A stretch of 32,000 nucleotides of DNA from Longivirga aurantiaca. Lineage in GTDB: Bacteria; Actinomycetota; Actinomycetes; S36-B12; CAIYMF01. Shown here piece by piece: positions 11,490-27,312 of this stretch. Each line of letters opens with the position of its first letter. Position 1 is the stretch's first letter. The translations under genes and the position numbers were made by a program. Under the pieces are notes generated by a model. That model made no database searches and was not told the DNA's origin. It was given only the letters and a program-made list of their open reading frames with translations. The stretch covers positions 1,050,001 to 1,082,000 of the forward strand of contig NZ_JBHSTI010000008.1 in the NCBI RefSeq assembly GCF_042660085.1, read 5' to 3'.

Positions 11490-14400
11490 GTGGACGACGG
11501 GACGCTTCCGGGCGCTTCGCAGGCAGAGGCGATTCTTCGGACCCGTCTGGAGGACATCACGCCTGGAGCCCGTATCGATGGAGTGACCGGGAGGGGCTCC
11601 GTCGAGGTCGTGTCGATCCGCTGGCACGGCTCGAACTTCATCACGCTGACCTACCGCGACGACCATGGTGCGACGAACCAGCAGGTCCTCGGCCGCGACC
11701 ATGAACCCGGCCTCCGGCTGGCGTCCTCGGGACCCAGTCACGCCTTCGACGGAGATGCCGACTCGTGGAGGTTGGCCGCGGAAGCTCTCCGCATCCGGTA
11801 CGCCGCTTTGTTCGACCCCATGCTGGCTGTCGTCACGAGCGACCTGGAGCCGCTGCCGCACCAGCTTCGGGCTGTCTACGGCGAGCTGCTCCCGAGGACG
11901 CCCCTTCGGTTCCTGCTCGCTGACGACCCCGGAGCAGGCAAGACGATCATGGCCGGGCTCTACATCAAGGAACTGATCCTCCGAGGGGATCTCGCTCGCT
12001 GCTTGATCGTGGCGCCGGGGTCGCTCGTTGAGCAGTGGCAGGACGAGCTGTACGAGAAGTTCGGCCTGCGCTTCGAGCTCCTCACCCGGTCGCTCATCGA
12101 CGAGGCCGTCGAGCGCAGCCCGTTCGATCAGCACCCCCTGCTGATCGCACGGATGGACCAGCTCTCCCGGAGCGACGACCTCGTCGCCCAGCTGGAACGC
12201 AGCGACTGGGACCTTGTCGTCGTCGATGAGGCGCACCGCATGTCGGCGCACTACTTCGGCCAGGAACTGAAGACGACCAAGCGATACCAGCTCGGGCTCG
12301 TGCTCGGTCGGGTCACCCGCCACCTGCTGCTGATGACCGCCACCCCGCACGCCGGCAAGCAGGAGGACTTCCAGCTCTTCCTCGCGCTGCTCGACGGAGA
12401 TCGGTTCGAGGGCCGCTTCCGCGACGGCGTCCACACGGTGGAGCCGGGCGACCTCATGCGCCGCATGGTCAAGGAGGAGCTCCTCACCATGGACGGCAAG
12501 CCGCTGTTCCCTGAGCGCCGCGCTTACACCGTCCCGTATGACCTCTCCGACTCCGAGAAGGACCTGTACGAAGCCGTCACCCAGTACGTGCGCGAGGAGA
12601 TGAACCGAGCGGAACGCCTCAAGGCCGAAGGTGAGGGTCGCCGCGGCAACCAGGTCGGCTTCGCACTCACGGTTCTGCAGCGCCGCCTTGCCTCGAGCCC
12701 CGAGGCGATCTTGCGCAGCCTCGAGCGCCGCAAGGCACGTCTCGAGGGCCGCCGACGCGAGATGGACGCGGCCGCCGCGCACGCCGAGGAGATCTCGCTG
12801 CGGCAACGCCTCGACGAGATCCTGGGCAGGGGCACCGACGAAGATCTAGAAGCCCGCCTCGATGACCTCCCGGGTGAGGAGCTCGAGGAGCTGGAGGAGA
12901 ACGTCGTCGACGCCGCGACGGCCGCCCGCACGGTCGCCGAGCTCGATGTTGAGATCGCCATGCTCGACGACCTTGTCGAGTTGGCTCGCCGAGTCCGCTG
13001 GTCCGGCACGGACAAGAAGTGGTCGGAGCTGCGCACCATCCTCACGGACTCAGACTTGACCGTCGACGAGTCCGGGAACCTGCGCAAGATCATCATCTTC
13101 ACCGAGCATCGCGACACACTGAACTACCTGGTCGACCAGATCCGCAGCCTGGTGGGGCGCGAGGAGGCTGTCCTCGCGATTCACGGAGGGATCCGCCGCG
13201 AAGAACGCCGCAAGGTTCAAGAGCTCTTCACGCAGGACAAGGACACCCTCGTCCTGGTGGCGACCGACGCGGCTGGCGAGGGACTGAACCTTCAGCGAGC
13301 GCACCTGATGGTCAACTATGACCTGCCGTGGAACCCCAACCGAATCGAGCAGCGCTTCGGCCGCATCCACCGCATCGGACAGACCGAGGTGTGCCACCTC
13401 TGGAACCTCTTGGCGGCCAACACACGTGAGGGCGAAGTGTTCCTCCGCCTCCTGGAGAAGATCGAGGAGCAGCGCCAGGCCTACCAGGGGCGCGTGTTCG
13501 ATGTCCTAGGCGACGCTTTCGAGGATCGGCCGTTGCGCCAGCTGCTCATCGACGCGATCCGCTACGGCGACCAGCCGGAGGTCCGAGAGCGCCTCAACAT
13601 GGTGATCGACGAGACAGTGAGCAAGGGCCTGGACGAGCTCATCGCCGAACGTGCGCTCTATCGCGAGGTGTTGGCCGAGGCGGACATCGAGGAGCTTCGA
13701 CGTCGCGTCGAGGAGGCGCAGGCCAGGCGCCTGCAGCCCCACTACGTCCAGGCCTTCTTCCTCGCCGCGTTCACGCGATTGGGAGGACGAATCACCGCCC
13801 GCGAGACCGGGCGCTACGAGATCACGCACGTGCCGGCTGACATCCGTGATCGGGATCGGCAGATTGGCGTAGGCGCTCCTGTCCTCAACCGGTACGAGCG
13901 TGTTGCTTTCGACAAGCCCTACGTCCGGCTGGGCCACGCCCCCCGCGCGGACCTCATCGCACCCGGACACCCCCTTGTCGACGCCGTCGTCGACCTCACC
14001 ATCGAACGCAACAACAACGCTCTCAAGCAAGGCGCTGTGCTTGTCGATCGTGACGACCCGGCTGAGTCGCCGCGTCTGCTCGTGGCCATGACGCAGGAGA
14101 TCTCGGATGGCCATGTGCCGGCGCGGGTGGTGTCCAAGCAGTTTCAGTTCGTCGAGATCGCGCCCGACGGAGATGCACGATCCGCTGGTCCTGCTCCGTA
14201 CCTCGACTACGAGGAGCTTCGCGAGGAAGAGAGGCCGGCGGTCGCGGCGGCACTGGCCGACGCATGGCTCGCTGCGGGCGTCGAGGACGTCGCGGTGTCG
14301 TGGGCGATCGAACACGCACTCCCCGAGCACCAACGCGATGTAGAGGCTCGCGTCCTGCCACTGGTCGCACGCACCCGCGACCATGTGCGTCACCGACTGA

Positions 14401-15059
14401 CGAGCGAGATCAACTACTGGGACACCCGCCACGCCGAGCTCCTCGACCAAGAGGCGGCCGGCCGCCAGCTTCGAATCCGGCCTGAGACCGCCTATCGTCG
14501 CGCGCGCGACCTTGAGGGGCGCTTGTCGCGTCGTCTGGTTGACCTAGATGCCGATGGGCACTTGGCCGTGGCCCCTCCGTACGTTGTAGGTGGTGCGCTC
14601 GTCTTGCCCCAGGGCTTGATCGATCGTGCGCTCGGCCGTCGATCCGCCCCCGAAGCCACCTACGCCAGAGACACCGCTGTGATCGAACGTCGGGCGGTCG
14701 ACGCCGTTCTCGCCGCTGAACGAACGCTGGGGCGACGTCCCGAGGAGATGGCACACAACCACCCAGGGTGGGACATCCGGTCTCAGGCGGCTGACGGCAG
14801 TGTGGTGAAGATCGAGGTCAAAGGCCGCATCGCTGGCGCGGATGATTTCACCATCACGATGAACGAAGTGCTCACCGCCAAGAACCTCGGCGACGACTAC
14901 CGCCTGGCCCTCGTCGAAGTGAGTCCTGACGGCCCCATCCATGACCGCCTGAGATACCTGACCCGTCCCTTCGAAACGACCGGTACCGACGATTTCAGTG
15001 TCAAGCGCTACGTGATGAACTGGGACGCCCGATGGTCGACGGGAACCGCACCACACTGA
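11490..15059 (+). CDS. SNF2-family helicase with C-terminal DUF3883-type PD-(D/E)xK nuclease-like domain
   Basis: ORF 11490..15059. GTG start with AAGGGGG 5 nt upstream. Helicase motifs: I LLADDPGAGKTIMAG, II VVVDEAH, III LLMTATPHAGK, V ATDAAGEGLNLQ, VI NRIEQRFGRIHRIGQ. The C-terminus (HPGWDIRS...VVKIEVKGR) has a D...ExK pattern typical of DUF3883. Confidence 0.9.
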   Translation: MDDGTLPGASQAEAILRTRLEDITPGARIDGVTGRGSVEVVSIRWHGSNFITLTYRDDHGATNQQVLGRDHEPGLRLASSGPSHAFDGDADSWRLAAEALRIRYAALFDPMLAVVTSDLEPLPHQLRAVYGELLPRTPLRFLLADDPGAGKTIMAGLYIKELILRGDLARCLIVAPGSLVEQWQDELYEKFGLRFELLTRSLIDEAVERSPFDQHPLLIARMDQLSRSDDLVAQLERSDWDLVVVDEAHRMSAHYFGQELKTTKRYQLGLVLGRVTRHLLLMTATPHAGKQEDFQLFLALLDGDRFEGRFRDGVHTVEPGDLMRRMVKEELLTMDGKPLFPERRAYTVPYDLSDSEKDLYEAVTQYVREEMNRAERLKAEGEGRRGNQVGFALTVLQRRLASSPEAILRSLERRKARLEGRRREMDAAAAHAEEISLRQRLDEILGRGTDEDLEARLDDLPGEELEELEENVVDAATAARTVAELDVEIAMLDDLVELARRVRWSGTDKKWSELRTILTDSDLTVDESGNLRKIIIFTEHRDTLNYLVDQIRSLVGREEAVLAIHGGIRREERRKVQELFTQDKDTLVLVATDAAGEGLNLQRAHLMVNYDLPWNPNRIEQRFGRIHRIGQTEVCHLWNLLAANTREGEVFLRLLEKIEEQRQAYQGRVFDVLGDAFEDRPLRQLLIDAIRYGDQPEVRERLNMVIDETVSKGLDELIAERALYREVLAEADIEELRRRVEEAQARRLQPHYVQAFFLAAFTRLGGRITARETGRYEITHVPADIRDRDRQIGVGAPVLNRYERVAFDKPYVRLGHAPRADLIAPGHPLVDAVVDLTIERNNNALKQGAVLVDRDDPAESPRLLVAMTQEISDGHVPARVVSKQFQFVEIAPDGDARSAGPAPYLDYEELREEERPAVAAALADAWLAAGVEDVAVSWAIEHALPEHQRDVEARVLPLVARTRDHVRHRLTSEINYWDTRHAELLDQEAAGRQLRIRPETAYRRARDLEGRLSRRLVDLDADGHLAVAPPYVVGGALVLPQGLIDRALGRRSAPEATYARDTAVIERRAVDAVLAAERTLGRRPEEMAHNHPGWDIRSQAADGSVVKIEVKGRIAGADDFTITMNEVLTAKNLGDDYRLALVEVSPDGPIHDRLRYLTRPFETTGTDDFSVKRYVMNWDARWSTGTAPH

Positions 15060-15075: not shown

Positions 15076-17880
15076 GTGAGCACCGTCAAGCGCAAGCTGA
15101 TCGAGGTCGCCCTGCCGCTGGAGGCCATCAACCGCGAGTCCGCGCGCGAGAAGTCCATCCGTCACGGTCACCCTTCCACCCTTCATCTCTGGTGGGCCCG
15201 ACGACCGCTTGCCGCTGCGCGGGCCGTACTATTCGCGCAACTCGTTGATGACCCCTCTGCGCGGCCGGCTGAGTTCCCCACAGACGAAGCTCAGGCCGTG
15301 GAGCGCAAACGCCTCTTCGGCATCATCGAGAGACTTGTTGACTGGGACAACATCAACGACGAATCGCTGTTCCGAGAGGCACGTCAGGAAATCCTCAGGT
15401 CAACTGGCGGTCGTCCGCCGACGATCCTTGACCCCTTCGCCGGCGGAGGTTCCATTCCCCTGGAAGCTCAGCGACTTGGCTTGGAGGCGCATGCCTCGGA
15501 TCTCAATCCAGTCGCGGTGCTGATCAACCGAGCGCTTATCGAGATCCCGCCGTTGTGGTCGGGTGTGCCCCCAGTCTTCCCTGGGGCGTCCGACTCCCGC
15601 ATGGGCGCGTGGACTGGCACTACCGGTCTCGCGGAGGATGTCCGGCGGTACGGCCAATGGATGCGCGACGAAGCGGAACGCCGGATCGGGCACCTGTACC
15701 CGAAGGCGAAACTCGGCGACGGCACTGAGGCGAATGTCATCGCCTGGATTTGGGCACGGACGATCACCTGCCCGAACCCTGCCTGCGGCATCGAGATGCC
15801 GCTGGCGCGGTCCTGGTGGCTGGGTAAGAAGAAGGGCAAGGAAGCCTTCGTCGTACCCGAGGTCGTGACGAAGAGCGATGGAACGCGCCGCGTCGAGTTC
15901 GCTATTGGCCATGACGTGCATGCTGGCCCCTCGGGCGCTGCCGATGGGACGGTGACGCGCACCGGTGCCGTCTGCGTGGCATGCGGCACCGGCGTGCCAC
16001 TCTCATACGTGCGCGACGAAGGCAAGTCTGGTCGAATCGGCACTCGACTCATGGCCATAGTTGCCGAGGGTGATCGTCGTCGCCTGTATCTCCCACCTAC
16101 GCCCGAGCAGGAATCGGCAGCGGACGTGGCCGTACCTGCGGATGTACCTGAAACGGACTTGCCCGATGCTGCCTTGGGGTTTCGCGTTCAGGGCTACGGG
16201 ATGCGACGCCACGTGGATCTGTTCACAGCGCGTCAGCTCACAGCGATGACGACTTTCAGCGACTTGATCGGCGAGGCCCGCGAGCGTGTGCTTGCTGACG
16301 CCACCGCACACGGCATGACACAAGATGATCGGAGCCTTGAGGTCGGCGGAACGGGTTCGGCCGCCTACGCCGACAGTGTTGCTGTGTACCTGGCATTGGT
16401 CCTTGGGAAGGTAGCCGATATTGGCAACGCACTTGTGAGCTGGAAGCCGAGCATGGATCAGGCGATTCATCTCTTCACCCGCCAAGCCATCCCGATGTTG
16501 TGGGACTTCTCCGAGACCCCGGTCCTCAGTGATCGACATGCCGGCGGATACACAGTGTCGTTGGGGAACGTCGCGAAGGCGATTCCTAACGTGCCGCCCG
16601 GGTCGCATCGCGGGCATGTCACCCAAGCAGATGCCGCGAAGCGTTCGTACGAATCGGTTCTAGTCGCTACCGACCCGCCCTACTACGACAACGTGGGGTA
16701 CGCGGACCTCTCCGACTTCTTCTATGTTTGGCTCCGGCGTTCCCTGCTCGGGATTCTTCCCACCACCCTTGCCACAATGCTGACTCCGAAGGCGGACGAG
16801 CTTGTGGCTGAACCCTTTCGGCATGGTGGTGCTGCCTCTGCAGAGCGCTTCTTCGAGGAGGGGTTCCGGGACGTCTTCGCTCATATTCGCAAGGACACGC
16901 CCAACGACCTCCCAATCACAGTGTTCTACGCGTTCAAGCAGTCGGACACGGATGTTGAGGGCGTCGCTAGCACGGGATGGCAGACGCTGCTCGAGGGAAT
17001 GCTCAGTTCCGGTTGGGAGGTCACTGCGACATGGCCGGTGCGAACGGAACTGGGTAACCGAATGCGGAGTATTGATTCCAATGCGTTGGCGTCCTCCATT
17101 GTTCTGGCATGTCGGCCGAGGTCGGCTTCCGCTGAGGCGGTTACACGACGTGCCTTCATCGCCAGGCTGAAGGAGGAACTCCCTGCTTCGTTGCGCGTGC
17201 TCCAGCAGGGCAGCGTGGCACCGGTGGATCTGGCGCAGGCTGCCATCGGGCCCGGCATGGCTGTGTTCTCGCGGTACACCAAGGTCGTTGAAGCGGATGG
17301 CTCCGACATGTCCGTCCGCACGGCACTTGCCCTGATCAACCAGGTTCTCGACGAAGTGCTGACGGAGCAGGAAGGTGACTTCGATGCCGACACCCGATTC
17401 TGCGTGAAGTGGTTCACCCAGTTCGGGTGGAATGAGGGCACCTCGGGCGAGGCGGATGTTCTCGCTCGCGCCACGAACACGTCCGTCGAGGGACTTGCCC
17501 GAGGCGGCGTCTTCAAGGCTGTTGCGGGGAAGGCACGGCTGTTGGGCCCAACCGACCTGGCTGAGGACTGGGACCCGATGGCGGATGATCGGGTCAGCGA
17601 TTGGGAGGTTGCGATTCGGCTGGCTAAGGCGCTTAGCGAGCAGGGTATGGAACGGGCGGCCGCACTTATGGCAACTGCTGGTGCGCGACGTGATCTGGAT
17701 ACGGTCAAGGAGCTCGCCTACCTGCTCTTCAGCCTGTCGGAGAAGAAGGGCTGGACGCAGACAGCCGTCCTGTTCAACGGCCTCGGAACCGCCTGGAACG
17801 ACGTGGAGAATGCCGCGCGAACCGCTGCCGGCCGGCAGGTTGTGGCCCAAGATGAGTTGACGTTTGACGACGAGAACTGA
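15076..17880 (+). CDS. DUF1156-type DNA methyltransferase (DPPY amino-methyltransferase, N6-A or N4-C)
   Basis: ORF 15076..17880. GTG start 16 nt after the upstream stop codon. The N-terminus KLIEVALPLEAINRESAREKSIRHGHPSTLHLWWARRPLAAARAV is characteristic of DUF1156. SAM motif I is DPFAGGGSIPLEA (aa 119-). Motif IV is TDPPYYDNVGY (aa 532-). Confidence 0.9.
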   Translation: MSTVKRKLIEVALPLEAINRESAREKSIRHGHPSTLHLWWARRPLAAARAVLFAQLVDDPSARPAEFPTDEAQAVERKRLFGIIERLVDWDNINDESLFREARQEILRSTGGRPPTILDPFAGGGSIPLEAQRLGLEAHASDLNPVAVLINRALIEIPPLWSGVPPVFPGASDSRMGAWTGTTGLAEDVRRYGQWMRDEAERRIGHLYPKAKLGDGTEANVIAWIWARTITCPNPACGIEMPLARSWWLGKKKGKEAFVVPEVVTKSDGTRRVEFAIGHDVHAGPSGAADGTVTRTGAVCVACGTGVPLSYVRDEGKSGRIGTRLMAIVAEGDRRRLYLPPTPEQESAADVAVPADVPETDLPDAALGFRVQGYGMRRHVDLFTARQLTAMTTFSDLIGEARERVLADATAHGMTQDDRSLEVGGTGSAAYADSVAVYLALVLGKVADIGNALVSWKPSMDQAIHLFTRQAIPMLWDFSETPVLSDRHAGGYTVSLGNVAKAIPNVPPGSHRGHVTQADAAKRSYESVLVATDPPYYDNVGYADLSDFFYVWLRRSLLGILPTTLATMLTPKADELVAEPFRHGGAASAERFFEEGFRDVFAHIRKDTPNDLPITVFYAFKQSDTDVEGVASTGWQTLLEGMLSSGWEVTATWPVRTELGNRMRSIDSNALASSIVLACRPRSASAEAVTRRAFIARLKEELPASLRVLQQGSVAPVDLAQAAIGPGMAVFSRYTKVVEADGSDMSVRTALALINQVLDEVLTEQEGDFDADTRFCVKWFTQFGWNEGTSGEADVLARATNTSVEGLARGGVFKAVAGKARLLGPTDLAEDWDPMADDRVSDWEVAIRLAKALSEQGMERAAALMATAGARRDLDTVKELAYLLFSLSEKKGWTQTAVLFNGLGTAWNDVENAARTAAGRQVVAQDELTFDDEN

Positions 17881-17891
17881 CGGGACAGACC

Positions 17892-20800
17892 ATGGCATTG
17901 AGTAACCGCGATCGAGTTGGTCGCGGCTTTGAGCTCCTAGCCGAAGGGCTTGAGCCTTTCGTCGACCCCCGCATGTCGCGTGCCGCTGGGACTGTGGGCG
18001 AAGACTGGGCGAAGTTGCTGGAGGCTCGTGACGCTGCCAAGCATGGGTCTCGCAAGGTTTACGAGAAGAGCGACCCGCAGGTGCTGTTGCGCGTACTCAC
18101 GGAGGAGTGGCGGGTCTTCAAGGACGAGCTCTCGAGGGCGGATCAGACTTTCGCATCCGAGCTGCGGGCGACGCGAAACGACTGGGCCCACAACAAGCCC
18201 TTCTCCGGTGATGACACCTATCGTGCTCTGGACACGATGGAGCGTCTGCTGACGGCGGTCGGAGCGGTGTCGCAGGCGGATGAAGTTCGTCGGATCCGCG
18301 CTGACCACCAACGCTCCACGTTCGAGGCGGAGACGAAGCGGCTGGTGCGGTCGCAAGAGGCGACCGTGTCGGTGGCAGGGCAGGGGCTCAAGCCGTGGCG
18401 GGAGGTGCTGGCACCTCACGCTGACGTTGCGACGGGCAACTTCTCTGCCTCAGAGTTCGCCGCCGACCTGCACATGGTGGCTTTCGCAACGGGTGACCAG
18501 ACCGTCGGCGAAGAGTATGCCGACCCGCACCAGTTCTTCCGCCGAACCTTCTTGACCGAGGGCCTGCGCGAGCTGCTGGACCGCGCAGTCAGACGCATGA
18601 GTGGTGATGCCAATGCCAGCCCCATCATCAACCTGCAGACCAACTTCGGTGGCGGTAAGACCCACTCAATGCTTGCGTTGTGGCACCTCCTCTCCGGAGC
18701 ACAGGTCGGGTCGCTGACCCAGGAGGTACAGGATCTCGTTGCAGACCGTGCCTTGCCGCCGTCGGTGCGCCGGGTCGCGCTAGTCGGCACTCACATGTCT
18801 CCCGGAGCACCGACCATCAAGGCGGATGGCACGGAGGTGCGCACGCTCTGGGGCGAGCTGGCCTGGCAGCTGGGTGGTGCCGAAGCCTTCGCACTCGTCG
18901 CCGAGGCCGACGCAACGAGCACCAATCCAGGTGACGCGCTCCGGCAGCTGATCGCGTCGTACTCGCCGTGCCTGATCCTCATTGACGAATGGGTGGCCTA
19001 CGCCCGGCAGTTGTGGGGCCGGGAAGACCTACCGGCTGGCACGTTCGACACCCAGTTCACCTTCGCGCAGTCGCTGACCGAGGTAGTCAAGACGGTGCCC
19101 GGCGCCATGCTGGTTATCTCGATCCCCGCATCTCACGACCCCGACCGCGATAGCGGATCGAGTGGTTCAGCCATCGAGGTCGGCGGTCCGAACGGCCAGG
19201 AAGCCCTGCAGCGTCTGCAGAACGTGGTTCGTCGCGTCGCTGATCAATGGCGGCCGGCCAGCTCGCAGGAGTCGTTCGAGATCGTCCGCCGGCGCCTGTT
19301 CCAGGAACCGGATGCCCAGGCGCAGTCCGACATCAGCGCTGTGGCCCGGCAGTTCACCCAGTTCTACGCCCGGCACCCGGGGGAGTTCCCGCGCGAGGTC
19401 GTTGACCCGGCGTATGAGCAGCGGATCAAGGCTGCCTACCCTCTTCACCCGGAGCTGTTCGACCGGCTGTACGAGGACTGGTCGACCCTGGAGCGGTTCC
19501 AGCGCACCCGCGGAGTTCTGCGGCTGATGAGCTCGGTTGTACACGCTCTGTGGGTAGCTCAGGACGCGTCGCCGATGGTTCTTCCGGGAACTGTGCCGCT
19601 CGACGTGCCGACGGTGACGAGCGAGATCACGCAGTACCTGCCGGACTCGTGGAAGCCGATCATCGACACGGACATCGACGGGGCAGGATCGACTCCGGCG
19701 AAGATCGATGCCGAACGTCCGACGTTCGGCCAGCGGGCGCTGACCAGGCGTCTGGCGCGTGCGATCTTCATTGGTTCAGCACCTACGCTTCGCTCGGCTC
19801 ACCGAGGTGTGGAGCGGCAGCGGATCTGGCTGGGCACGGCGGTCCCTGGCGACACCGTCGGCAACTTCGGTTCAGCGATCGACTTGCTCTCGCAGCGGGC
19901 GACGTACCTCTATGTCGAAGGTGCCAGGTTCTGGTACGACACCCAGGCGTCGGTGACGCGCACTGCCGCTGACTACGCGGACGGTCTGCGCGATCGACCC
20001 GAAGAGGTGTGGAAGGAGATCGTGGATCGCCTCCGGGCGAGCGAGGCGAGGTACCGCGGCGGCTTCGCGGGCGTTCACGTGGCCCCGGACTCGACCGCAG
20101 AGATCCCAGACAGCGAAGACGTCCGCCTGGTCGTGCTGCATCCTTCGCAGCCCCACTCTCGGGGCTCTGGCGACTCGCCGGCGATGCTGTTCGCCACCGA
20201 CGCTTTCGAGCACCGGGGGACGAGCCAGCGCACGAACCGCAACATGCTGGTGTTCTTGGCACCGGACTCCAAGCGCCTTGACGAACTGCAGGAGGCTGCT
20301 CGCGACTACCTCGCGTGGTCCTGGGTGGCCGACAGGCAGGAGGAGCTCAACCTCTCGCCTCAGCAGGTCAAGCAGGTCGAGGCAAACAGCAAGCGGTCAG
20401 ATGAGGCCGTGACTGCTCGGATTGCCCAGGCCTATCACTGGGCCTTGGTACCCGAGCAGTCCGATCCCACGCGGCCGGCCACTATCGCGGTCGAGAAGGC
20501 GGACGGCGCGAACGAGCGTCTCGCCGAGCGGGTGACGGAGAAGCTGAACCGGTTGGCGCTGCTCGCCGGCTCAGTCGCGGCCCGAACGATCCGTCTCGAC
20601 CTCGATCAGAAGCTCAAGACGGTGTGGGATCGCGGGCACCTCTCTGTCGGCGACCTGTGGTCGTACTACTGCCGGTATCCCTACCTCACACGCCTTCGCG
20701 ATCGCACGGTTCTCGACGAAGGCGTTCGGTCGACACTGACCTGGATGACGTGGGAGACCGAGGGGTTTGCGCTCGCGGACTCGTACGACGAAGCGAGTGG

Positions 20801-21233
20801 TCGCTACATCGGGTTGGTCCTGCCGGGCGGCGACTCCTACTTCGGGCAGATCACCGACTCCACCTTGCTCGTCTCCCCAGAGGTGGCGGCGCGGCAGCTC
20901 GAGGAGATCGTGCCGCCTCAGCCGGCTCCGGTGGATCCGAACGATCCCGACGACCCGAACCCTGTCGTACCGACACCCCCCGTTCCTCCCGTGGCGTCGA
21001 ACACCCGCTTCTTCGGTGTGTTCTCGGTTGATCCGGAGCGGTACGGGCGTGACTTCACGAGACTCAGCCAGGAGGTCTTGCAGCAGCTCACTGCGGTTGA
21101 CGGTGTGGAGCTGGAGATCCAGGTGGAGATTCATGCCAGGCGTGCTGACGGGTTCCCGGACGACAAGGTGAGGACGGTTCTGGAGAACGCTCGGACCCTG
21201 CGCTTCGATCAATCGTCGTTCGAGGACCAGTAG
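17892..21233 (+). CDS. DUF499-family (BrxC/PglY-like) P-loop ATPase with N-terminal Swt1-like HEPN domain
   Basis: ORF 17892..21233. ATG 11 nt after the methyltransferase stop codon. The N-terminal ~140 aa carry an R-x4-H motif (ELRATRNDWAHNKPF). Walker A: NFGGGKTHSMLALWHL. Walker B: CLILIDEW. A Pro-rich linker precedes the conserved C-terminal module. Confidence 0.88.
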   Translation: MALSNRDRVGRGFELLAEGLEPFVDPRMSRAAGTVGEDWAKLLEARDAAKHGSRKVYEKSDPQVLLRVLTEEWRVFKDELSRADQTFASELRATRNDWAHNKPFSGDDTYRALDTMERLLTAVGAVSQADEVRRIRADHQRSTFEAETKRLVRSQEATVSVAGQGLKPWREVLAPHADVATGNFSASEFAADLHMVAFATGDQTVGEEYADPHQFFRRTFLTEGLRELLDRAVRRMSGDANASPIINLQTNFGGGKTHSMLALWHLLSGAQVGSLTQEVQDLVADRALPPSVRRVALVGTHMSPGAPTIKADGTEVRTLWGELAWQLGGAEAFALVAEADATSTNPGDALRQLIASYSPCLILIDEWVAYARQLWGREDLPAGTFDTQFTFAQSLTEVVKTVPGAMLVISIPASHDPDRDSGSSGSAIEVGGPNGQEALQRLQNVVRRVADQWRPASSQESFEIVRRRLFQEPDAQAQSDISAVARQFTQFYARHPGEFPREVVDPAYEQRIKAAYPLHPELFDRLYEDWSTLERFQRTRGVLRLMSSVVHALWVAQDASPMVLPGTVPLDVPTVTSEITQYLPDSWKPIIDTDIDGAGSTPAKIDAERPTFGQRALTRRLARAIFIGSAPTLRSAHRGVERQRIWLGTAVPGDTVGNFGSAIDLLSQRATYLYVEGARFWYDTQASVTRTAADYADGLRDRPEEVWKEIVDRLRASEARYRGGFAGVHVAPDSTAEIPDSEDVRLVVLHPSQPHSRGSGDSPAMLFATDAFEHRGTSQRTNRNMLVFLAPDSKRLDELQEAARDYLAWSWVADRQEELNLSPQQVKQVEANSKRSDEAVTARIAQAYHWALVPEQSDPTRPATIAVEKADGANERLAERVTEKLNRLALLAGSVAARTIRLDLDQKLKTVWDRGHLSVGDLWSYYCRYPYLTRLRDRTVLDEGVRSTLTWMTWETEGFALADSYDEASGRYIGLVLPGGDSYFGQITDSTLLVSPEVAARQLEEIVPPQPAPVDPNDPDDPNPVVPTPPVPPVASNTRFFGVFSVDPERYGRDFTRLSQEVLQQLTAVDGVELEIQVEIHARRADGFPDDKVRTVLENARTLRFDQSSFEDQ

Positions 21234-21238
21234 GCGCG

Positions 21239-23416
21239 TTGCCCGAGAACGCGGTAACGCGCGAGGAGCTCAGGTCGCTCCTGGCGCGCGCACAGATGCT
21301 TGCCGCTCAGGCGGAGTCGATCACGTCCACCAGTGCGGGGTCCTCTCGCGAAGTCGCGGACGGCTATCGGGCTGTCGTCGCACGCATGGTGGCTCGTGAG
21401 CTCGGCTCGATACCTGTGGCGAGACTCAGGGATGTCACGGAGGGTCGGCTGCGTCTGGGGCCGATCGAGTCGCGCTACAAGACGGTCGCTCAGCTGCAGA
21501 ATGTGTCCGCCTACACCCTCATGCAACTTCCTGGCGTCGGCGAGGCTACTGCTAGTCAGGTTGTAGCGGCCGTCCACACGGTGGCTCGCACGGTGGAGGA
21601 CGGGTTCCGGCTGCGCATCGACCTGGACGCGAGCGACCCAGTCACGACCGATCTGTTGCGTTCGACGTGGCGCTACGACTCGGTGACGCGGGCGGTGGCC
21701 CCGGTTAGGGAGCCGGCCGGGCGGATGAGCAACGAACTCGAACGTCTCGCCGTCGAGGCGAAGCCGGCTGGCTACGGCGCACTGCGCAGCTTGTTCACCA
21801 GCCGTGCGAAGAAGGACGGCGCCCGCGCCGCGGTGGAGCGCATCGAGCAGTGGATGCGGTGGAGCGACAGCCCTGCTAACGCAGCCGCGTGGACAGGAGC
21901 CATTGCCGCGATCCAGGCTCCGACACCTTCGGCTGCCGACGCTTGGAGAGCCTTCGAGACGCGATCGCCGGAGTTCTACGGCGCCTTGGGTGAGGTGGTC
22001 GATCTCCGGCTCGACGTCGGCTCGGCACAGGGCTTCTTGCCAGCGGAGATCGTCGCGAAGGTGGAGGAGCAGCTGCTCGATACGTCGATGCTCAAGGTGA
22101 GTCTGCGCGGCTACCAGTCGTTCGGCGCGCGCTTCGCGCTGGTCCAGAGGAAGGTGATCATCGGCGACGAGATGGGTCTCGGCAAGACGATCCAGGCGCT
22201 GGCCGTCATGACGCATCTTGCTTCGTCCGGCAAGGCGCACTTCCTCGTCGTGTGCCCTGCCAGCGTCCTGGTGAACTGGATCCGCGAGATCCGTACCCGA
22301 TCCGATCTTCAGGCCTACCAGTTGCATGGCCCGGACACGGCGCGTCAGCAGGGCCTGTGGACGCAGCGAGGTGGCGTGGCGGTCACCACGTTCGAGGGCC
22401 TGCGGCGGCTGTCGCTGCGTGAAGTTCCCCTGCTGGTCGTCGATGAGGCCCACTTCGTGAAGAACCCGACGGCGCAGCGCTCCCAGCTGGTCGCCTCCTG
22501 GATCGCGGGCGCAGAGCGAACGCTGTTCCTGACCGGTACTCCGATGGAGAACCGGGTCGAGGAGTTCCAGAACCTCGTCCGCTACCTGCAACCTCAAGTC
22601 GCGAACAGGGTGAATCCGTCGCACGGGCTGGCGGGAGCTGACGCCTTCCGCCGGGCGGTCGCGCCGGTCTACTTGCGCCGCAATCAGGACGACGTGCTCA
22701 TGGAGCTCCCCGACCTGATGTCGGTGGAGGAATGGGAGTCCTTCGGGCCGTCGGAAGCTGCTTCCTACCGGGATGCCGTCATGGGTGGCAACTTCATGGC
22801 GATGCGCCGAGCTGCCTTCGACGCGGTGCCGGTCACCGCGGCGACCAAGATGGCACGGCTGCTCGAGCTGTGCGACGAAGCGGCCGCGAACGGGCACAAG
22901 GTCCTCGTCTTCTCCTTCTTCCGCGACGTGCTGGACAAGGTGGCCGAGTCACTCGGGTCGCGAGCGCACGGACCATTGACGGGGAGCGTGCCGGCGGCGA
23001 AGCGCCAGGCGGTTGTCGATGGTTTCACCGCGGCCTCATCGGATGCGGTCCTTGTCGCGCAGATCCAGGCCGGTGGAGTCGGGCTCAACGTCCAGGCAGC
23101 GAACATCGTGATTCTGTGCGAGCCGCAAGTGAAGCCCTCGGCGGAGGCGCAAGCCATCGCGCGCGCGCACCGCATGGGTCAGGTCAGGAAGGTCCAGGTG
23201 CACCGTCTCCTTGTCGAGAACAGCGTCGACCAGCGAATGCTGGAGATCCTCGGAGCGAAGCAGGCGTTGTTCGACGAGTACGCGGCCAAGAGCGATCTGG
23301 CATCCGCCACCCCCGACGCGGTCGACATCTCCGAGACCGAGCTCGCGAAGACCATCGTCGCGGCAGAGCAGGAGCGCCTTGCTCGCGAGCTCATGGAGCA
23401 GCAGGCTTTGCAGTGA
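21239..23416 (+). CDS. Second SNF2-family helicase with helix-hairpin-helix-containing N-terminal region
   Basis: ORF 21239..23416. TTG start 5 nt after the upstream stop codon. Motifs: I IGDEMGLGKTIQAL, II LVVDEAHFVKN, III LFLTGTPMENR, V AGGVGLNVQ, VI AQAIARAHRMGQ. The N-terminal ~290 aa include LMQLPGVGEATASQVVAAV (HhH-like). Confidence 0.9.
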   Translation: MPENAVTREELRSLLARAQMLAAQAESITSTSAGSSREVADGYRAVVARMVARELGSIPVARLRDVTEGRLRLGPIESRYKTVAQLQNVSAYTLMQLPGVGEATASQVVAAVHTVARTVEDGFRLRIDLDASDPVTTDLLRSTWRYDSVTRAVAPVREPAGRMSNELERLAVEAKPAGYGALRSLFTSRAKKDGARAAVERIEQWMRWSDSPANAAAWTGAIAAIQAPTPSAADAWRAFETRSPEFYGALGEVVDLRLDVGSAQGFLPAEIVAKVEEQLLDTSMLKVSLRGYQSFGARFALVQRKVIIGDEMGLGKTIQALAVMTHLASSGKAHFLVVCPASVLVNWIREIRTRSDLQAYQLHGPDTARQQGLWTQRGGVAVTTFEGLRRLSLREVPLLVVDEAHFVKNPTAQRSQLVASWIAGAERTLFLTGTPMENRVEEFQNLVRYLQPQVANRVNPSHGLAGADAFRRAVAPVYLRRNQDDVLMELPDLMSVEEWESFGPSEAASYRDAVMGGNFMAMRRAAFDAVPVTAATKMARLLELCDEAAANGHKVLVFSFFRDVLDKVAESLGSRAHGPLTGSVPAAKRQAVVDGFTAASSDAVLVAQIQAGGVGLNVQAANIVILCEPQVKPSAEAQAIARAHRMGQVRKVQVHRLLVENSVDQRMLEILGAKQALFDEYAAKSDLASATPDAVDISETELAKTIVAAEQERLARELMEQQALQ

Positions 23417-23425
23417 CCCGCCGCA

Positions 23426-23848
23426 CTAGGGCGTCAAGTCTGCGTTGGCGGCTTTGGTCAGCCTGATGGGTCGTCCGCCCGCGACGGTGACTAGGCCTCG
23501 CCGGACCAGCGCCGGAAGAACCAGTTCACGATCAGGGCCGGACAGTGAACGGCGCACGTCCTCTCCGAGTTGTATCCGCCGCAGAAGCCGAGCCTGAGCC
23601 GTGGTGAGCTCCGAGGCTTCCGGCTCGTCCGCAGTGCCCGCGATCGTCACCTCAGCAAGCAGGTCCCGGGGGTGAACTCCCAACGCTTCGCACATGTGGG
23701 CGAGGTGTCGCAGCGTCAGGTTTCCGTCATCCCCGCCAGCTTCGATGCGCCGGATGACCTGGAAGTTGACGCCTGTGAAGTACGCGAGCCGGCGCTGTGA
23801 GAGTCCCCGCTCGGTGCGCAGCCGGGCCACCAGTTCCGCGTTGATCAT
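23426..23848 (-). CDS. XRE-family helix-turn-helix protein
   Basis: ORF 23426..23848(-). N-terminus: LVARLRTERGLSQRRLAYFTGVNFQVIRRIEAG (HTH_3 pattern). Its start overlaps the upstream stop codon (ATGA). Confidence 0.8.
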   Translation of the reverse strand: MINAELVARLRTERGLSQRRLAYFTGVNFQVIRRIEAGGDDGNLTLRHLAHMCEALGVHPRDLLAEVTIAGTADEPEASELTTAQARLLRRIQLGEDVRRSLSGPDRELVLPALVRRGLVTVAGGRPIRLTKAANADLTP

Positions 23849-25011
23849 GGGAGCGCCGTGGCCGTGATGCCGAGGCGTGAAAGCCAGCGGCGGGGATGGA
23901 CGTGCCGATCAGCCCTGCGGCCGTGGACGCAGATCCCGAAGTCGAGGGACGCTTGGTTGAGGGCTGTGGACACGGCTCGGTCGCTGAGTGGGAGCAACTT
24001 GTCCTTGCCCTCGGCCCCCGATCGTCGGCGCAGGTCGGTCTGGGCCTTGGCGGCGCGCGCGGTGTTGTCGAGAAGGGGCACCGTGCGATGGGCGCCCAGC
24101 CGAAGGCCGTCGGGAGCCACATCGTCAAGGGTGAGGGCGAGCATCTGGAGGATCCCTACCTGCTGGGCGGCCAGGGCTACGACGATGGCGCGGTGAGGTT
24201 GCCGGTAGCCGACGAGGTCCTCGTCGATCGTGATCGGGTCGACCAGCTGGCGTTCGCTGCTGCACAGCAGTACCGGCGTGTCGGTCTTCAAGTAGATGTC
24301 GTGGTGCCAGGCGGCAAGCTGGAGCGCGCGGATACCGATCACGAGTGCGTCGTCGTGTGGCGCGGTTCCGGTGACCCATTCGACGAGGTTGGCGAGGACG
24401 TCGATGGTGGCGCCGTCTCGGTCTAGCGTGTCGTCGCAGTGCGCCCAGGTATGGCCGAAGTGCGCTTCGACCGCTCGATAGGTCTCTGAGTCTGTGCTCG
24501 CCTCGAGGGTTGTACGGAATCGGTCGAACGGGATACGCGATGCGTCATCGAGCCCGAAGCCCAGGCGTACGCCCGTGGCAGGTTGGCGCATGCTGGGTTG
24601 CGGGACGTCGGAGTAGCGCATGGGGTGCGCCTTCGCTCGCGCGAGGATCCGCTCGAAGTTGTCCGAACGGGGTGGCCGGTGGAGGAGCCAGAGCGGTAGG
24701 GACGCGGCCTTGGCGAGGGCGACGAGATGCCCGAGGGTGAGCCTGGTGAGGTTCTGTGCATCCAGTGCCACGAGGGCAGAGATGTCGTAGGCGTCGAGCC
24801 AGGCCAGCGCGAGGGCGACGTCCTGGTTCTCGTTGCGGCCCTTCCCCGCGACGTCCCGGCGCTTGCCCAGCGCGGACAGCATGTCGCCAGCGATGACGGC
24901 GGACCGTTTGAGGTTGGGTCGGATGTCGAACCACAACGCTGCCCCCGGGCTGGGGAGCCCGAGGGGCAGCGCGGTGGCGACGCCGGTCACGTCGACATGG
25001 TGGGTAGCCAC
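23845..25011 (-). CDS. Hypothetical transposition-accessory protein (N-terminal degenerate TniB/AAA+-like region)
   Basis: ORF 23845..25011(-), GTG start. It occupies the position taken by TniQ/TnsD in this kind of operon. MLSALGKRRDV...ALALAWLDAYDISALVALDAQNL resembles the TniB-family ILxALG...hhhhD(E)xHNL segment, but I see no P-loop. Confidence 0.7.
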   Translation of the reverse strand: MATHHVDVTGVATALPLGLPSPGAALWFDIRPNLKRSAVIAGDMLSALGKRRDVAGKGRNENQDVALALAWLDAYDISALVALDAQNLTRLTLGHLVALAKAASLPLWLLHRPPRSDNFERILARAKAHPMRYSDVPQPSMRQPATGVRLGFGLDDASRIPFDRFRTTLEASTDSETYRAVEAHFGHTWAHCDDTLDRDGATIDVLANLVEWVTGTAPHDDALVIGIRALQLAAWHHDIYLKTDTPVLLCSSERQLVDPITIDEDLVGYRQPHRAIVVALAAQQVGILQMLALTLDDVAPDGLRLGAHRTVPLLDNTARAAKAQTDLRRRSGAEGKDKLLPLSDRAVSTALNQASLDFGICVHGRRADRHVHPRRWLSRLGITATALP

Positions 25012-25012
25012 G

Positions 25013-25792
25013 TCACTTCTTCGGCTTGGGCCTGGGGTATGGGGGCATCAGCGCGGTGGCGGCCCTGGCCAGCGACAGGTCGATCTCAGGAGGAGTGGCG
25101 TCGGGGTCGAGGGCGTGGGTGAGTTCGAGGGTGTGCTGGAGGAAGATCCCCCAGCGGCGGAGGAGCCCGAAGCAGTAGTCCTGATCGATGAGCTTGAGCA
25201 GCTTCGGATCGCTGATGCCGAAGCTGGCGTGCATTCCACGCAGTGCGCGGATCAGGTCATCACCCTTGAGGGCCTGTACGTCGACGGTGGCGATGATGTC
25301 GCCGCGAAGTCGGGCGCTGGTGGTGCTGGCCCGGTCTAGGTCGTCGGAACCGAGCAGGACCAGGGACCAGTTGGCTCCGGGTCGTGCGTGCAGGTACTGC
25401 AGCTGGCTTGCGGCCTTGGTGGTCAGTTCCTGAGCCTGATCGATGACGAGGATGCTCGACTCGTGCCCGAGGGCGTCCACGAGGTCATCCTGCATGTCGC
25501 GGAGTTCGTACTCGTCGCGGTCCCCGAGAACCGCGTCGATGAGGACGGCCATGAGCTTGTTCTCCGACGGGGCGGGCGGCATCGCGACGAAGCTGTATGG
25601 GTGCTGCTGGTCGCTCAGCGCGGCCGCCAGGGCGATGCGCTTGCCGGCGCCCCGTGGCCCGGCGACGACCATGGTGCCGCCGTGGCGAGCGGTGAACCCG
25701 AGGCGTGCTCGGATCTCGGTTGTGGCCGGATGCGGTACGACCGTCGCCACGCCTCGAAGACCGACGGGGAGGTACCGGTCGAGGGCGTTCAT
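25013..25792 (-). CDS. TniB/TnsC/MuB-like AAA+ transposition ATPase
   Basis: C-terminal 259 codons of ORF 25013..26848(-). The ATG at 25792 overlaps the transposase stop codon (ATGA). Walker A: VAGPRGAGKR. Walker B-like: SSILVIDQAQEL. Confidence 0.8.
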   Translation of the reverse strand: MNALDRYLPVGLRGVATVVPHPATTEIRARLGFTARHGGTMVVAGPRGAGKRIALAAALSDQQHPYSFVAMPPAPSENKLMAVLIDAVLGDRDEYELRDMQDDLVDALGHESSILVIDQAQELTTKAASQLQYLHARPGANWSLVLLGSDDLDRASTTSARLRGDIIATVDVQALKGDDLIRALRGMHASFGISDPKLLKLIDQDYCFGLLRRWGIFLQHTLELTHALDPDATPPEIDLSLARAATALMPPYPRPKPKK

Positions 25793-27312
25793 ACCAGCAA
25801 GCCCTGTCCGTGCTCGTCGAAGCCGTTGTCGTCGCGGCGGGGCCGGTAGCTGTCGAGGGCGTCGCTCTGCCCGGTGCGAAGGTCGTCGTCGGGGACGTCG
25901 ACCTCGTAGGCGAACTTGCCGCCGGGAAGCTTGCGCTTGTGCAGCTTGCTGGTGTCGGGGTCCTGCTTGTGGATGCGCTTGACGGACGAGACGTTCTTCA
26001 GAGCACGTGCCTGGTCGGCGCGGCGCTGCTTGAGGAAGGCCTCCTGGTCCTCGGGCTGGAGGTGGTCTGATGGGTAGGCGGTTCCGACGTGCTTGCCGTC
26101 GTGGAAGACCTCGATGAAGTCGCGCATGTGGGGCAGGTAGCGGACCTCGACCTGCTTGCCGATGAGGCGGTCGAGCTCGCCGTGCAGGGTGACGTAGTCC
26201 AGGCTCTTCCAGCGCACGCCTTGCACGGAGACGGTGGCTTTGGAGTCGGAGAGCAGGAAGTCGCACCAGAGCTGGTCGGCGGGGACGGTGACCAGGTCCC
26301 GGGGGTCGGCCTGCCACGCCTGCAGCGGGGTCATGCCCAGGGTGCGCACGACGTGCTCGGTGTTGTACCAGTCCAGCCAGGCCGTGACTCGCTCGACGAA
26401 CGCGACCTCGGACAGGGCGTACTGGGCGCGGTGCAGGGTGCCGCGGACGTCGGTGCCGGAGTCGATGTAGCCCGGCAGGGAGGCCAGGCAGTTCCCCTTG
26501 AAGGTCCGCCAGAACCGCTCGCACCTGCCTTTGAGGTTGGGGCTGTACGGGGGGAGCGGTGAGGGTGTGGTACCCAGTCGCAGGCAGGACTCGGTGACCA
26601 GGGTGGAGAGGAAGTCCTTGCCCTGGTCCCACACGATCCGGAACGGGAGCCCACCGACGCGGGTGTGGCCGTCGGCTGCGGTGCGCTCCAGGATGGCGGA
26701 GATGAACGCGACGCGGACCTCCTCCGCCGACGGGGTGCCGAAGGTGATCACCAGGCTGAGCACGTAGCGGGTCGCATGATCGACGACCACGGTGATGTAG
26801 GGCCGTGTTGCCCGCTTGTGCCCGGTGGGGATCACGTAGATGGGGCACTCGGTGTGGTCGGTCTCGTAGGTGTGGCCGCGCTCGCCGGGGTCCCGCTTGA
26901 GGTAGACGCGTCGCGAGCGCGCCTTGCCGTCACCGTGCCGGATGACAGTCATGGCGTGCTGGCCCAGCAGCGAGTTCACCTTGCGCTGAAATGTGGCCAG
27001 GCTGGGCAGGTTCTTGGTTGCCTTGAGGTTGCGGTACGCCTTGGCGAGGTTCCCTGAGCACCGGGCGACCTCGTTGACGACCTCACCGTCCAGCAGCCAC
27101 CCGTCCTTGGCTTCGGTCTGCAGTTCGCGGTCGTGGCGGGCCGCCCTGAGGGCCGCGACGAGCCTTCTGAGGTGCCGGACTGAGTAGCCGCTGGCTTCGG
27201 CAGCGACGCTGAACAGGGTGCCGTCCAGGTCGACGCCGGCGGCCTCGAGGGCGAATAGTTCGGCGATGACCCTGTCTCGACCATCTCGGTGCAGGGCGGG
27301 CTTGTTGCTCAT
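25789..27312 (-). CDS. DDE transposase, TniA/TnsB/MuA-like (rve integrase core + Mu-transposase C-terminal domain)
   Basis: ORF 25789..27312(-). The ATG has GAAGGA upstream. N-terminal HTH (GYSVRHLRRLV). DDE triad context: YETDHTECPIYV, IVWDQGKDFLS, YSPNLKGRCERFWRTFK. A beta-barrel-like C-terminal region follows (ATVSVQGVRWKSLDYV). Confidence 0.9.
   Translation of the reverse strand: MSNKPALHRDGRDRVIAELFALEAAGVDLDGTLFSVAAEASGYSVRHLRRLVAALRAARHDRELQTEAKDGWLLDGEVVNEVARCSGNLAKAYRNLKATKNLPSLATFQRKVNSLLGQHAMTVIRHGDGKARSRRVYLKRDPGERGHTYETDHTECPIYVIPTGHKRATRPYITVVVDHATRYVLSLVITFGTPSAEEVRVAFISAILERTAADGHTRVGGLPFRIVWDQGKDFLSTLVTESCLRLGTTPSPLPPYSPNLKGRCERFWRTFKGNCLASLPGYIDSGTDVRGTLHRAQYALSEVAFVERVTAWLDWYNTEHVVRTLGMTPLQAWQADPRDLVTVPADQLWCDFLLSDSKATVSVQGVRWKSLDYVTLHGELDRLIGKQVEVRYLPHMRDFIEVFHDGKHVGTAYPSDHLQPEDQEAFLKQRRADQARALKNVSSVKRIHKQDPDTSKLHKRKLPGGKFAYEVDVPDDDLRTGQSDALDSYRPRRDDNGFDEHGQGLLV

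What the first reader, a model, noticed from the sequence alone, without database searches (positions are those of the whole stretch)
17892..18320. HEPN (R-x4-H) module fused to the N-terminus of the DUF499 ATPase
The first ~140 aa of the ATPase are helical and contain ELRATRNDWAHNKPF, that is R-N-D-W-A-H, the R-x4-H signature of HEPN RNase domains (Swt1-like subgroup). A HEPN domain on a BrxC-like ATPase implies a possible RNA-targeting or abortive-infection arm inside what otherwise looks like a DNA-modification system. BREX BrxC, as I know it, lacks this domain.
Basis: partly seen in the sequence, partly recalled or inferred. Interest (0 to 1): 0.6.

Follow-up and report, generated by a model that had tools for sequence, protein, structure and literature searches.

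The report
Known HEPN–DUF499 (HmaC) defence ATPase
The N-terminus of this defence ATPase does carry an intact-looking HEPN RNase domain, but this fusion was published in 2013, has its own Pfam family and is found in over a thousand taxa, so it is an ordinary member of a known system.

Summary
ORF 17892-21233 (1113 aa) matches Pfam PF18731 (Swt1-like HEPN) at aa 11-124, over the whole profile, with E = 6e-36. R95-N-D-W-A-H100 is the R-x4-H motif.

[quoted passage not shown] That is where the HEPN literature places it. Across 84 species-level orthologues H100 is invariant and R95 is kept in 79.

The rest of the protein is PADLOC HmaC, a DUF499 AAA+ ATPase. HmaB (DUF1156 adenine methylase) and HmaA (SNF2 helicase with a NOV_C/DUF3883 nuclease) lie directly upstream.

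- Anantharaman et al. 2013 described this exact HEPN-DUF499 fusion in this operon.
- Payne et al. 2021 named the system Hma.
- Rakesh & Krishnan (NAR 2026) count the HEPN-fused form in 1370 of 2446 'Type-1 BREX-related' taxa, and they propose the same back-up suicide-RNase role.
- NCBI already names these proteins 'Swt1 family HEPN domain-containing protein'.

RNase activity has not been tested experimentally in any paper I found. Foldseek found no significant structural match, and no solved relative exists.

Verdict: already known, low interest.

The parts
17892..18266 (+). Swt1-like HEPN domain (aa 1-125) at the N-terminus of HmaC. Predicted helices are 5-32 (H1), 39-51 (H2), an insert at 52-81, 82-99 (H3) and 106-122 (H4).
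   Evidence: Pfam PF18731 at aa 11-124, E = 6e-36, full profile. AlphaFold2 pLDDT 95.0, pTM 0.87. The genome search places the match at window 17922-18263.
18174..18191 (+). R-x4-H motif R95-N-D-W-A-H100, the predicted catalytic Arg/His with the usual Asn after the Arg. [quoted passage not shown]
   Evidence: Conservation in 84 orthologues: H100 84/84, R95 79/84, N96 78/84. The position relative to the helices matches the HEPN description in PMC3710099 section 7.
18267..18377 (+). Long single linker helix (aa 126-162) between the HEPN domain and the ATPase. It is part of the add-on module, because it lies N-terminal to where the HEPN-less PADLOC HmaC model begins.
   Evidence: AlphaFold2 helix 126-162. 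PADLOC HmaC model positions 3-940 align only to aa 166-1111.
18387..21233 (+). HmaC body (aa 166-1113): DUF499 ORC/Cdc6-type AAA+ ATPase plus C-terminal domains. Walker A GGGKT is at aa 253-257 and Walker B LILIDE at aa 361-366.
   Evidence: PADLOC HmaC E = 2e-271. Pfam DUF499 E = 1e-24. Motifs.
15076..17880 (+). HmaB: DUF1156 N6-adenine DNA methyltransferase (DPFAGGG at aa 119, DPPY at aa 533). It ends 11 nt before the HmaC start codon.
   Evidence: PADLOC HmaB E = 0 (1118 bits). Pfam DUF1156 E = 8e-31.
11490..15059 (+). HmaA: SNF2 helicase (DEAH at aa 246) with a C-terminal NOV_C/DUF3883 PD-(D/E)xK nuclease (GWD...IEVK). This is the primary DNA effector of the system.
   Evidence: PADLOC HmaA E = 0 (1501 bits). 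Pfam SNF2-rel_dom, Helicase_C and NOV_C. Nickase activity and anti-T4 defence of a Halomonas HmaA are reported in PMC11232893.
21239..23416 (+). Second SNF2 helicase with an N-terminal helix-hairpin-helix, starting 5 nt after the HmaC stop. It is a lineage-variable neighbour and not a core Hma gene.
   Evidence: Pfam SNF2-rel_dom E = 4e-29 and weak HhH. PADLOC DrmD model PDLC02627 E = 4e-164. A relative is present in 14 of 83 related loci, with position and strand varying.

Best explanation
Bases 17892-18266 encode a genuine Swt1-like HEPN domain whose predicted catalytic residues are all present. It is joined by one long helix to the DUF499 AAA+ ATPase HmaC. HmaC is the third gene of an Hma operon, also called a 'Type-1 DUF499-centred BREX-related' operon, made of HmaA (SNF2 helicase-nuclease), HmaB (DUF1156 adenine methylase) and HmaC. 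This is a published, widespread architecture. Likely mechanism, inferred and not shown: HmaB methylates host DNA. HmaC acts as the ATP-driven scaffold and loader that recognises DNA and couples methylation to restriction, as shown for its homologue MtsA in the related MANTIS system. HmaA cuts unmodified invader DNA. The HEPN domain is a latent endoribonuclease. HEPN active sites are formed across a dimer, so I infer that it is switched on when HmaC changes its oligomeric or nucleotide state on invader DNA, or when a phage disables the complex. It would then cleave cellular and phage RNA as a second-line, abortive-infection effector, analogous to PrrC guarding the EcoprrI restriction system.
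For: Identity rests on tool results. Pfam PF18731 matches the full profile with E = 6e-36. PADLOC matches HmaC at 2e-271, HmaB at E = 0 and HmaA at E = 0, in consecutive genes with 16- and 11-nt gaps. All 120 listed close homologues carry PF18731 plus PF04465. All 83 related loci have the HEPN directly followed by DUF499, with HmaB upstream in nearly all. Of the 84 ORFs, 76 are 1100-1199 aa, so the fusion is not an assembly artefact. A catalytic state is supported by conservation: H100 84/84, R95 79/84, N96 78/84, plus invariant D61 and R111. The fold is supported by AlphaFold2 at pLDDT 95 with helix order H1, H2, insert, H3, loop, H4 and the motif at the end of H3, as described for HEPN in PMC3710099. 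Weak secondary Pfam hits are to other HEPN-type families over the motif region: DUF4145 in 24 of 48 members, plus HEPN_Apea, HEPN_LA2681 and the RNase L KEN domain. The ATPase motifs are intact. The published reading is the same. The loader role of a DUF499 ATPase comes from preprint 10.64898/2026.09.23.753747. The patchy distribution, 1 of 24 other genomes of the same genus, fits a mobile defence island.
Against: No RNase activity has been measured for any HEPN-DUF499 protein in the papers found. The only Hma system tested, from Halomonas, has a 958-aa HmaC without HEPN, and there HmaA alone was the component shown to defend. Foldseek against PDB and BFVD gave no significant match; the best annotated HEPN hit was 2hsb with E = 2 and TM 0.36. 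No solved relative is detectable by sequence or profile. Fold assignment therefore rests on the sequence profile and the helix order. R95 is Gly or Ala in a sizeable minority: 34 of 148 50%-identity representatives and 31 of 120 close homologues. Some lineages may therefore be inactive or use another Arg. The activation trigger and the dimer-gating step are pure inference.
Confidence: 0.6

Rival explanations
1. The HEPN RNase is part of primary restriction rather than a suicide back-up. On this reading it cleaves nascent phage transcripts or R-loop RNA at sites where the HmaC complex is loaded, so the system attacks invader DNA and RNA together without killing the cell.
For: The domain is covalently tied to the DNA-recognition ATPase rather than encoded as a separate toxin. 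The published C-terminal RRM-like domain of DUF499 proteins would allow RNA contact. Catalytic residues are conserved.
Against: About 44% of Type-1 BR taxa lack the HEPN domain (1076 of 2446), and the tested Halomonas system lacks it. It is therefore dispensable for the core reaction. Known HEPN RNases in defence mostly act non-specifically once activated (general knowledge; PMC3710099).
Confidence: 0.15
2. The domain is a non-catalytic HEPN that serves as a dimerisation or nucleic-acid-binding module for HmaC, like the HEPN domain of eukaryotic Swt1, which Anantharaman et al. infer to be inactive.
For: The Swt1-like family is listed as having only a 'partly conserved' motif. R95 is replaced by Gly or Ala in 34 of 148 diverse representatives. 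No activity has been shown.
Against: In this protein and in 79 of 84 species-level orthologues the full R-N-x3-H is present, and H100 is invariant. The 2013 paper explicitly classes the Ava_2192 (DUF499-fused) bacterial versions as active. Such strict conservation of a solvent-exposed His is hard to explain by a structural role alone.
Confidence: 0.2
3. The R-x4-H is a chance motif in a generic helical N-terminal extension, and the domain is not HEPN at all.
For: Foldseek returns only generic four-helix bundles, with E > 0.1. Three other R-x4-H strings occur by chance in the same ORF.
Against: The curated HEPN_Swt1 profile matches over its whole length at E = 6e-36, 96 bits above the cut-off. 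The control search over 14 well-known genomes gives no hits. The motif is conserved and correctly placed.
Confidence: 0.03

Closest known systems
Ava_2192-type HEPN-DUF499 ATPases (Swt1/Abi2-family HEPN fused to AAA+; Anantharaman et al. 2013, PMC3710099; Pfam PF18731 + PF04465)
   Same: Same two-domain architecture and same operon partners: an adenine methylase and an SNF2 helicase fused to a DUF3883 restriction-endonuclease domain. The motif is conserved in the same way and is classed 'active'. NCBI names the orthologues 'Swt1 family HEPN domain-containing protein'.
   Different: Nothing essential differs. This copy is an actinobacterial orthologue, 59-95% identical over the N-terminal 165 residues to the listed homologues.
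Hma system (Payne et al. 2021, PADLOC), equivalent to Type-1 DUF499-centred BREX-related system (Rakesh & Krishnan, NAR 2026, PMC12839542)
   Same: HmaA, HmaB and HmaC all match their PADLOC models at E = 0, 0 and 2e-271, in the canonical order. The HEPN-fused HmaC is the majority form, in 1370 of 2446 taxa.
   Different: The PADLOC HmaC model and the only experimentally tested system (Halomonas meridiana, HmaC 958 aa) lack the HEPN module. This locus also has an extra SNF2-HhH helicase 5 nt downstream.
MANTIS / Gao_RL (Type-2 BR system; preprint 10.64898/2026.09.23.753747)
   Same: It has a DUF499 AAA+ ATPase (MtsA), an N6-adenine methylase and a helicase-nuclease. It provides the only biochemical model for what a DUF499 ATPase does, namely loading and activating the methylase and triggering restriction.
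   Different: It has four genes, including the small DUF3870 protein MtsB, and its helicase carries a PLD nuclease. HEPN is not mentioned in the paper (0 occurrences).
BREX BrxC/PglY
   Same: ORC/Cdc6-type AAA+ ATPase followed by wHTH and alpha+beta domains. It has been proposed as a scaffold and switch in a methylation-based defence system.
   Different: No BrxC model matched in PADLOC at E <= 0.001. DUF499 ATPases form clades separate from BrxC, according to PMC12839542. No PglZ or BrxL match appeared among the ORFs scanned. BrxC has no HEPN domain.
PrrC-EcoprrI (a HEPN anticodon nuclease held latent by a type I restriction-modification system)
   Same: A HEPN RNase physically coupled to a restriction-modification machine and proposed as the second line of defence when restriction fails (general knowledge; PrrC is treated as HEPN in PMC3710099).
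   Different: PrrC is a separate polypeptide with its own ABC-type NTPase domain and a C-terminal HEPN from a different family. It targets tRNA-Lys. Nothing is known about the target here.

Membership tests
Pfam PF18731 HEPN_Swt1 (Swt1-like HEPN) | Profile score above the curated gathering threshold, with coverage of the whole domain | tested here: met
   123.6 bits against a cut-off of 27.5, E = 6.1e-36, profile positions 1-115 of 115 at aa 11-124. All 48 orthologue N-termini tested also match.
HEPN superfamily | R-x4-6-H motif with a polar residue after the Arg, conserved among orthologues | tested here: met
   R95-N96-x3-H100 is present. H100 is kept in 84/84, R95 in 79/84 and N96 in 78/84. 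R95 is less conserved in wider sets, at 114 of 148.
HEPN superfamily | Four-helix up-down bundle with an insert between H2 and H3, and the motif at the end of H3 and start of the H3-H4 loop | tested here: inconclusive
   The AlphaFold2 helix order and motif position agree with the description in PMC3710099. Foldseek found no significant match to any solved HEPN; the best was 2hsb with E = 2.0 and TM 0.36. Model coordinates could not be superposed by hand.
HEPN superfamily | Metal-independent endoribonuclease activity, usually as a dimer | not testable with these tools
   No experimental paper on a HEPN-DUF499 protein was found.
Hma / Type-1 BREX-related system | Co-oriented, adjacent genes for an SNF2 helicase (usually with a NOV_C/DUF3883 nuclease), a DUF1156 adenine methylase and a DUF499 ATPase | tested here: met
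   PADLOC HmaA at 1501 bits, HmaB at 1118 bits and HmaC at 901 bits. Pfam NOV_C, DUF1156 and DUF499. Gaps between genes are 16 and 11 nt. The catalytic motifs are intact.
Hma / Type-1 BREX-related system | Anti-phage activity | not testable with these tools
   Shown only for a Halomonas HmaA (PMC11232893), not for this locus or for any HEPN-bearing HmaC.
BREX (BrxC/PglY) | Match to BrxC models and presence of the PglZ and PglX partners | tested here: not met
   No BrxC model was among the PADLOC hits at E <= 0.001 for the ATPase. None of the ORFs scanned against Pfam or PADLOC returned a PglZ or BrxL match.

The most novel reading that the evidence does not exclude
The HEPN module may not be a simple suicide switch. 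It could be an RNase gated by HmaC oligomerisation, needed for normal restriction or acting as a PrrC-like guard that fires only when a phage anti-restriction protein disables the Hma complex. In lineages where the canonical Arg is Gly or Ala, the conserved Arg three residues upstream (R92) might take over catalysis. None of this is excluded by the evidence, and none is supported beyond conservation.
Probability: 0.15. Interest if true: 0.45.

Novelty: already known. Interest (0 to 1): 0.1.

Why it matters
For annotation, it fixes this gene as HmaC with an N-terminal Swt1-like HEPN domain, inside a complete Hma (Type-1 BREX-related) defence operon on a patchily distributed island. Scientifically, the only open point is experimental. 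Nobody has shown that the HEPN domain of any DUF499 ATPase cleaves RNA, what triggers it, or whether it makes the system abortive. That is a reasonable bench project, but the idea and the architecture have been in the literature since 2013 and were surveyed in 2026. This window adds no new concept.

Tried and rejected
1. Foldseek of two high-confidence AlphaFold2 models (165 aa and 133 aa) against PDB, and of the 133-aa model against BFVD. No hit had E <= 0.001. The top hits were generic helical bundles with TM 0.2-0.4. This is uninformative for small helical domains and is not evidence against HEPN.

2. phmmer and a profile hmmsearch of the N-terminal domain against all PDB sequences. Only chance matches appeared, with E >= 0.14. 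No solved close relative exists.

3. A test of whether loss of R95 is compensated by retention of R92. The raw 2x2 table on 146 representatives at 50% identity gives Fisher p = 0.005. On a tree, however, R95 changes state only about 5 times, and only one supported independent pair is available. No phylogenetically valid conclusion is possible, so the claim is dropped.

4. A gene-fusion artefact was considered and rejected. 76 of 84 orthologous ORFs are 1100-1199 aa and continuous.

5. Membership of BrxC/BREX was considered and rejected.

6. I looked for the second SNF2-HhH helicase in the 2026 survey text. It is not mentioned there.

Full report
**What is in the sequence**

The window is high-G+C DNA (68%) from a 3.67-Mb genome held as 71 contigs. 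ORF 17892-21233 on the + strand encodes 1113 aa.

- Pfam places PF18731 (HEPN_Swt1) on aa 11-124. The match covers the whole 115-position profile, with E = 6.1e-36 and 123.6 bits against a cut-off of 27.5. DUF499 falls on aa 303-849.
- PADLOC identifies the protein as HmaC (E = 2e-271). Its model aligns only to aa 166-1111, so the reference HmaC has no HEPN module.
- The bare R-x4-H pattern occurs four times in this ORF, so the pattern alone means little. The profile match and the conservation carry the evidence.

**Operon**

- Upstream, with gaps of 16 and 11 nt, lie HmaA (11490-15059) and HmaB (15076-17880).
- HmaA is an SNF2 helicase with DEAH and a C-terminal NOV_C/DUF3883 nuclease (GWD...IEVK).
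- HmaB is a DUF1156 adenine methylase with DPFAGGG and DPPY. Both match their PADLOC models at E = 0.
- HmaC has an intact Walker A (GGGKT, aa 253) and Walker B (LILIDE, aa 361).
- A second SNF2 helicase with a weak helix-hairpin-helix match starts 5 nt after the HmaC stop codon (21239-23416).
- The island sits after lexA and a class II ribonucleotide reductase gene.
- G+C at third codon positions is 0.74-0.81 in HmaC against 0.95 in the reductase gene.
- PF18731 was found in only 1 of 24 other genomes of the same genus that were searched. Both points fit an acquired defence island.

**Conservation**

- All 120 listed close homologues, out of 568 hits, carry PF18731 plus PF04465. Several are named by NCBI 'Swt1 family HEPN domain-containing protein'.
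- A scan of species-representative genomes found 505 stretches that encode a relative. In all 83 loci kept, the HEPN is directly followed by DUF499. HmaB is upstream in nearly all and HmaA in most.
- Of the 84 ORFs, 76 are 1100-1199 aa, so the fusion is real.
- In those 84 sequences H100, R111 and D61 are invariant. R95 is kept in 79 and N96 in 78.
- In wider sets R95 is less constant. It is Gly or Ala in 34 of 148 representatives at 50% identity, and Gly in 31 of 120 close homologues, for example the Streptosporangium-type proteins.
- Those variants nearly always keep R92. However, on a tree R95 changes state only about 5 times, so no valid test of compensation is possible.
- The window's own protein has both arginines.

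**Fold**

- AlphaFold2 gives confident models: pLDDT 90.7 for aa 1-165 and 95.0 for aa 1-133.
- The helices are 5-32, 39-51, a partly helical insert at 52-81, 82-99 and 106-122. A single long helix at 126-162 then leads into the ATPase.
- The R-x4-H therefore sits at the end of the third core helix and the start of the next loop, and there is an insert between core helices 2 and 3. Anantharaman et al. describe exactly this for HEPN domains.
- Foldseek against PDB and BFVD gave no significant match; the best annotated HEPN hit was 2hsb with E = 2.
- Sequence and profile searches of the PDB found nothing.
- I therefore score the fold criterion as consistent but formally inconclusive.
- Weak secondary Pfam hits over the motif region go to other HEPN-type families: DUF4145 in 24 of 48 members, plus HEPN_Apea, HEPN_LA2681 and the RNase L KEN domain.

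**What is already published**

- Anantharaman et al. [quoted passage not shown] DUF499 ... [quoted passage not shown] Active'. They propose HEPN as the RNA-targeting arm of such systems.
- Payne et al. 2021 named the three-gene system Hma.
- Rakesh & Krishnan 2026 (PMC12839542) call it the Type-1 DUF499-centred BREX-related system. They find the HEPN-fused ATPase in 1370 of 2446 taxa. [quoted passage not shown]
- The only tested Hma system, from Halomonas, has a HEPN-less HmaC. There HmaA was the component shown to defend.
- A 2026 preprint on the related MANTIS (Type-2) system shows that its DUF499 ATPase loads and activates the methylase and triggers the helicase-nuclease. HEPN is not mentioned in it.
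- I found no experimental test of the HEPN domain of any DUF499 protein.

**Mechanism**

Shown here: domain identity, intact motifs, operon membership and conservation.

Inferred:
- HmaB marks host DNA.
- HmaC is the ATP-driven recognition and loading scaffold.
- HmaA cuts unmodified DNA.
- The HEPN domain is a latent RNase. It would be switched on by a change in HmaC oligomeric state, because HEPN active sites are usually formed across a dimer (established knowledge of the superfamily). It would act as a back-up abortive effector, in the manner of PrrC with EcoprrI.

Rivals:
- An RNase integral to primary restriction.
- A non-catalytic binding or dimerisation module.
- A chance motif, effectively excluded.

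**Verdict**

Novelty: already known. Interest: low. Earlier notes of this scan on the same window describe the four-gene operon, the second helicase and a possible Tn7-like context. I used them only as leads.

Noticed in passing
window 21239-23416 (+); also L001:3672-5834, L024:13401-15572, and upstream of HmaA in L028, L029, L033, L034, L041, L048, L050, L062, L081: A second SNF2 helicase (725 aa, weak N-terminal HhH, no nuclease domain) follows HmaC after 5 nt. Its best PADLOC match is DrmD model PDLC02627 (E = 4e-164). A relative at 38-73% identity lies next to the Hma genes in 13 of 83 related loci, plus a weak 28%-identity hit in L082. It is sometimes downstream and sometimes upstream, on the opposite strand in several. 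The 2026 BREX-related survey text does not mention it. It may be a recurrent accessory component.
   Followed up: partly
Orthologues of aa 92-100 (e.g. P0050, P0055, P0060, L009, L013, L015): The canonical HEPN Arg (R95) is Gly or Ala in about a quarter of homologues, while N96 and H100 stay invariant and R/K92 is retained in 31 of 33 such representatives. This could be an arginine shifted by one helical turn, or inactive lineages. Only about 5 independent changes occur on the tree, so it is not testable statistically.
   Followed up: partly
window 23426-27312 (-), and the same arrangement in L001:5878-9812: Convergent with the defence operon are minus-strand genes for a 388-aa protein with no Pfam match, an AAA_22 ATPase (TniB/TnsC-like by domain) and a roughly 510-aa protein. 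The close relative L001 has the same genes plus an HTH protein. I did not test this.
   Followed up: no
L003:6227-7285 (Streptomyces fradiae locus): A Fic/Fic_N gene is inserted between HmaA and HmaB, and an integrase follows HmaC. This is an example of the gene insertions inside hma operons reported in PMC11232893.
   Followed up: no
G029 (same order, different family): C1:61060-61395 and C6:144688-145020: One related genome carries two separate full-length HEPN-DUF499 genes, with open frames of 1123 and 1120 aa.
   Followed up: no
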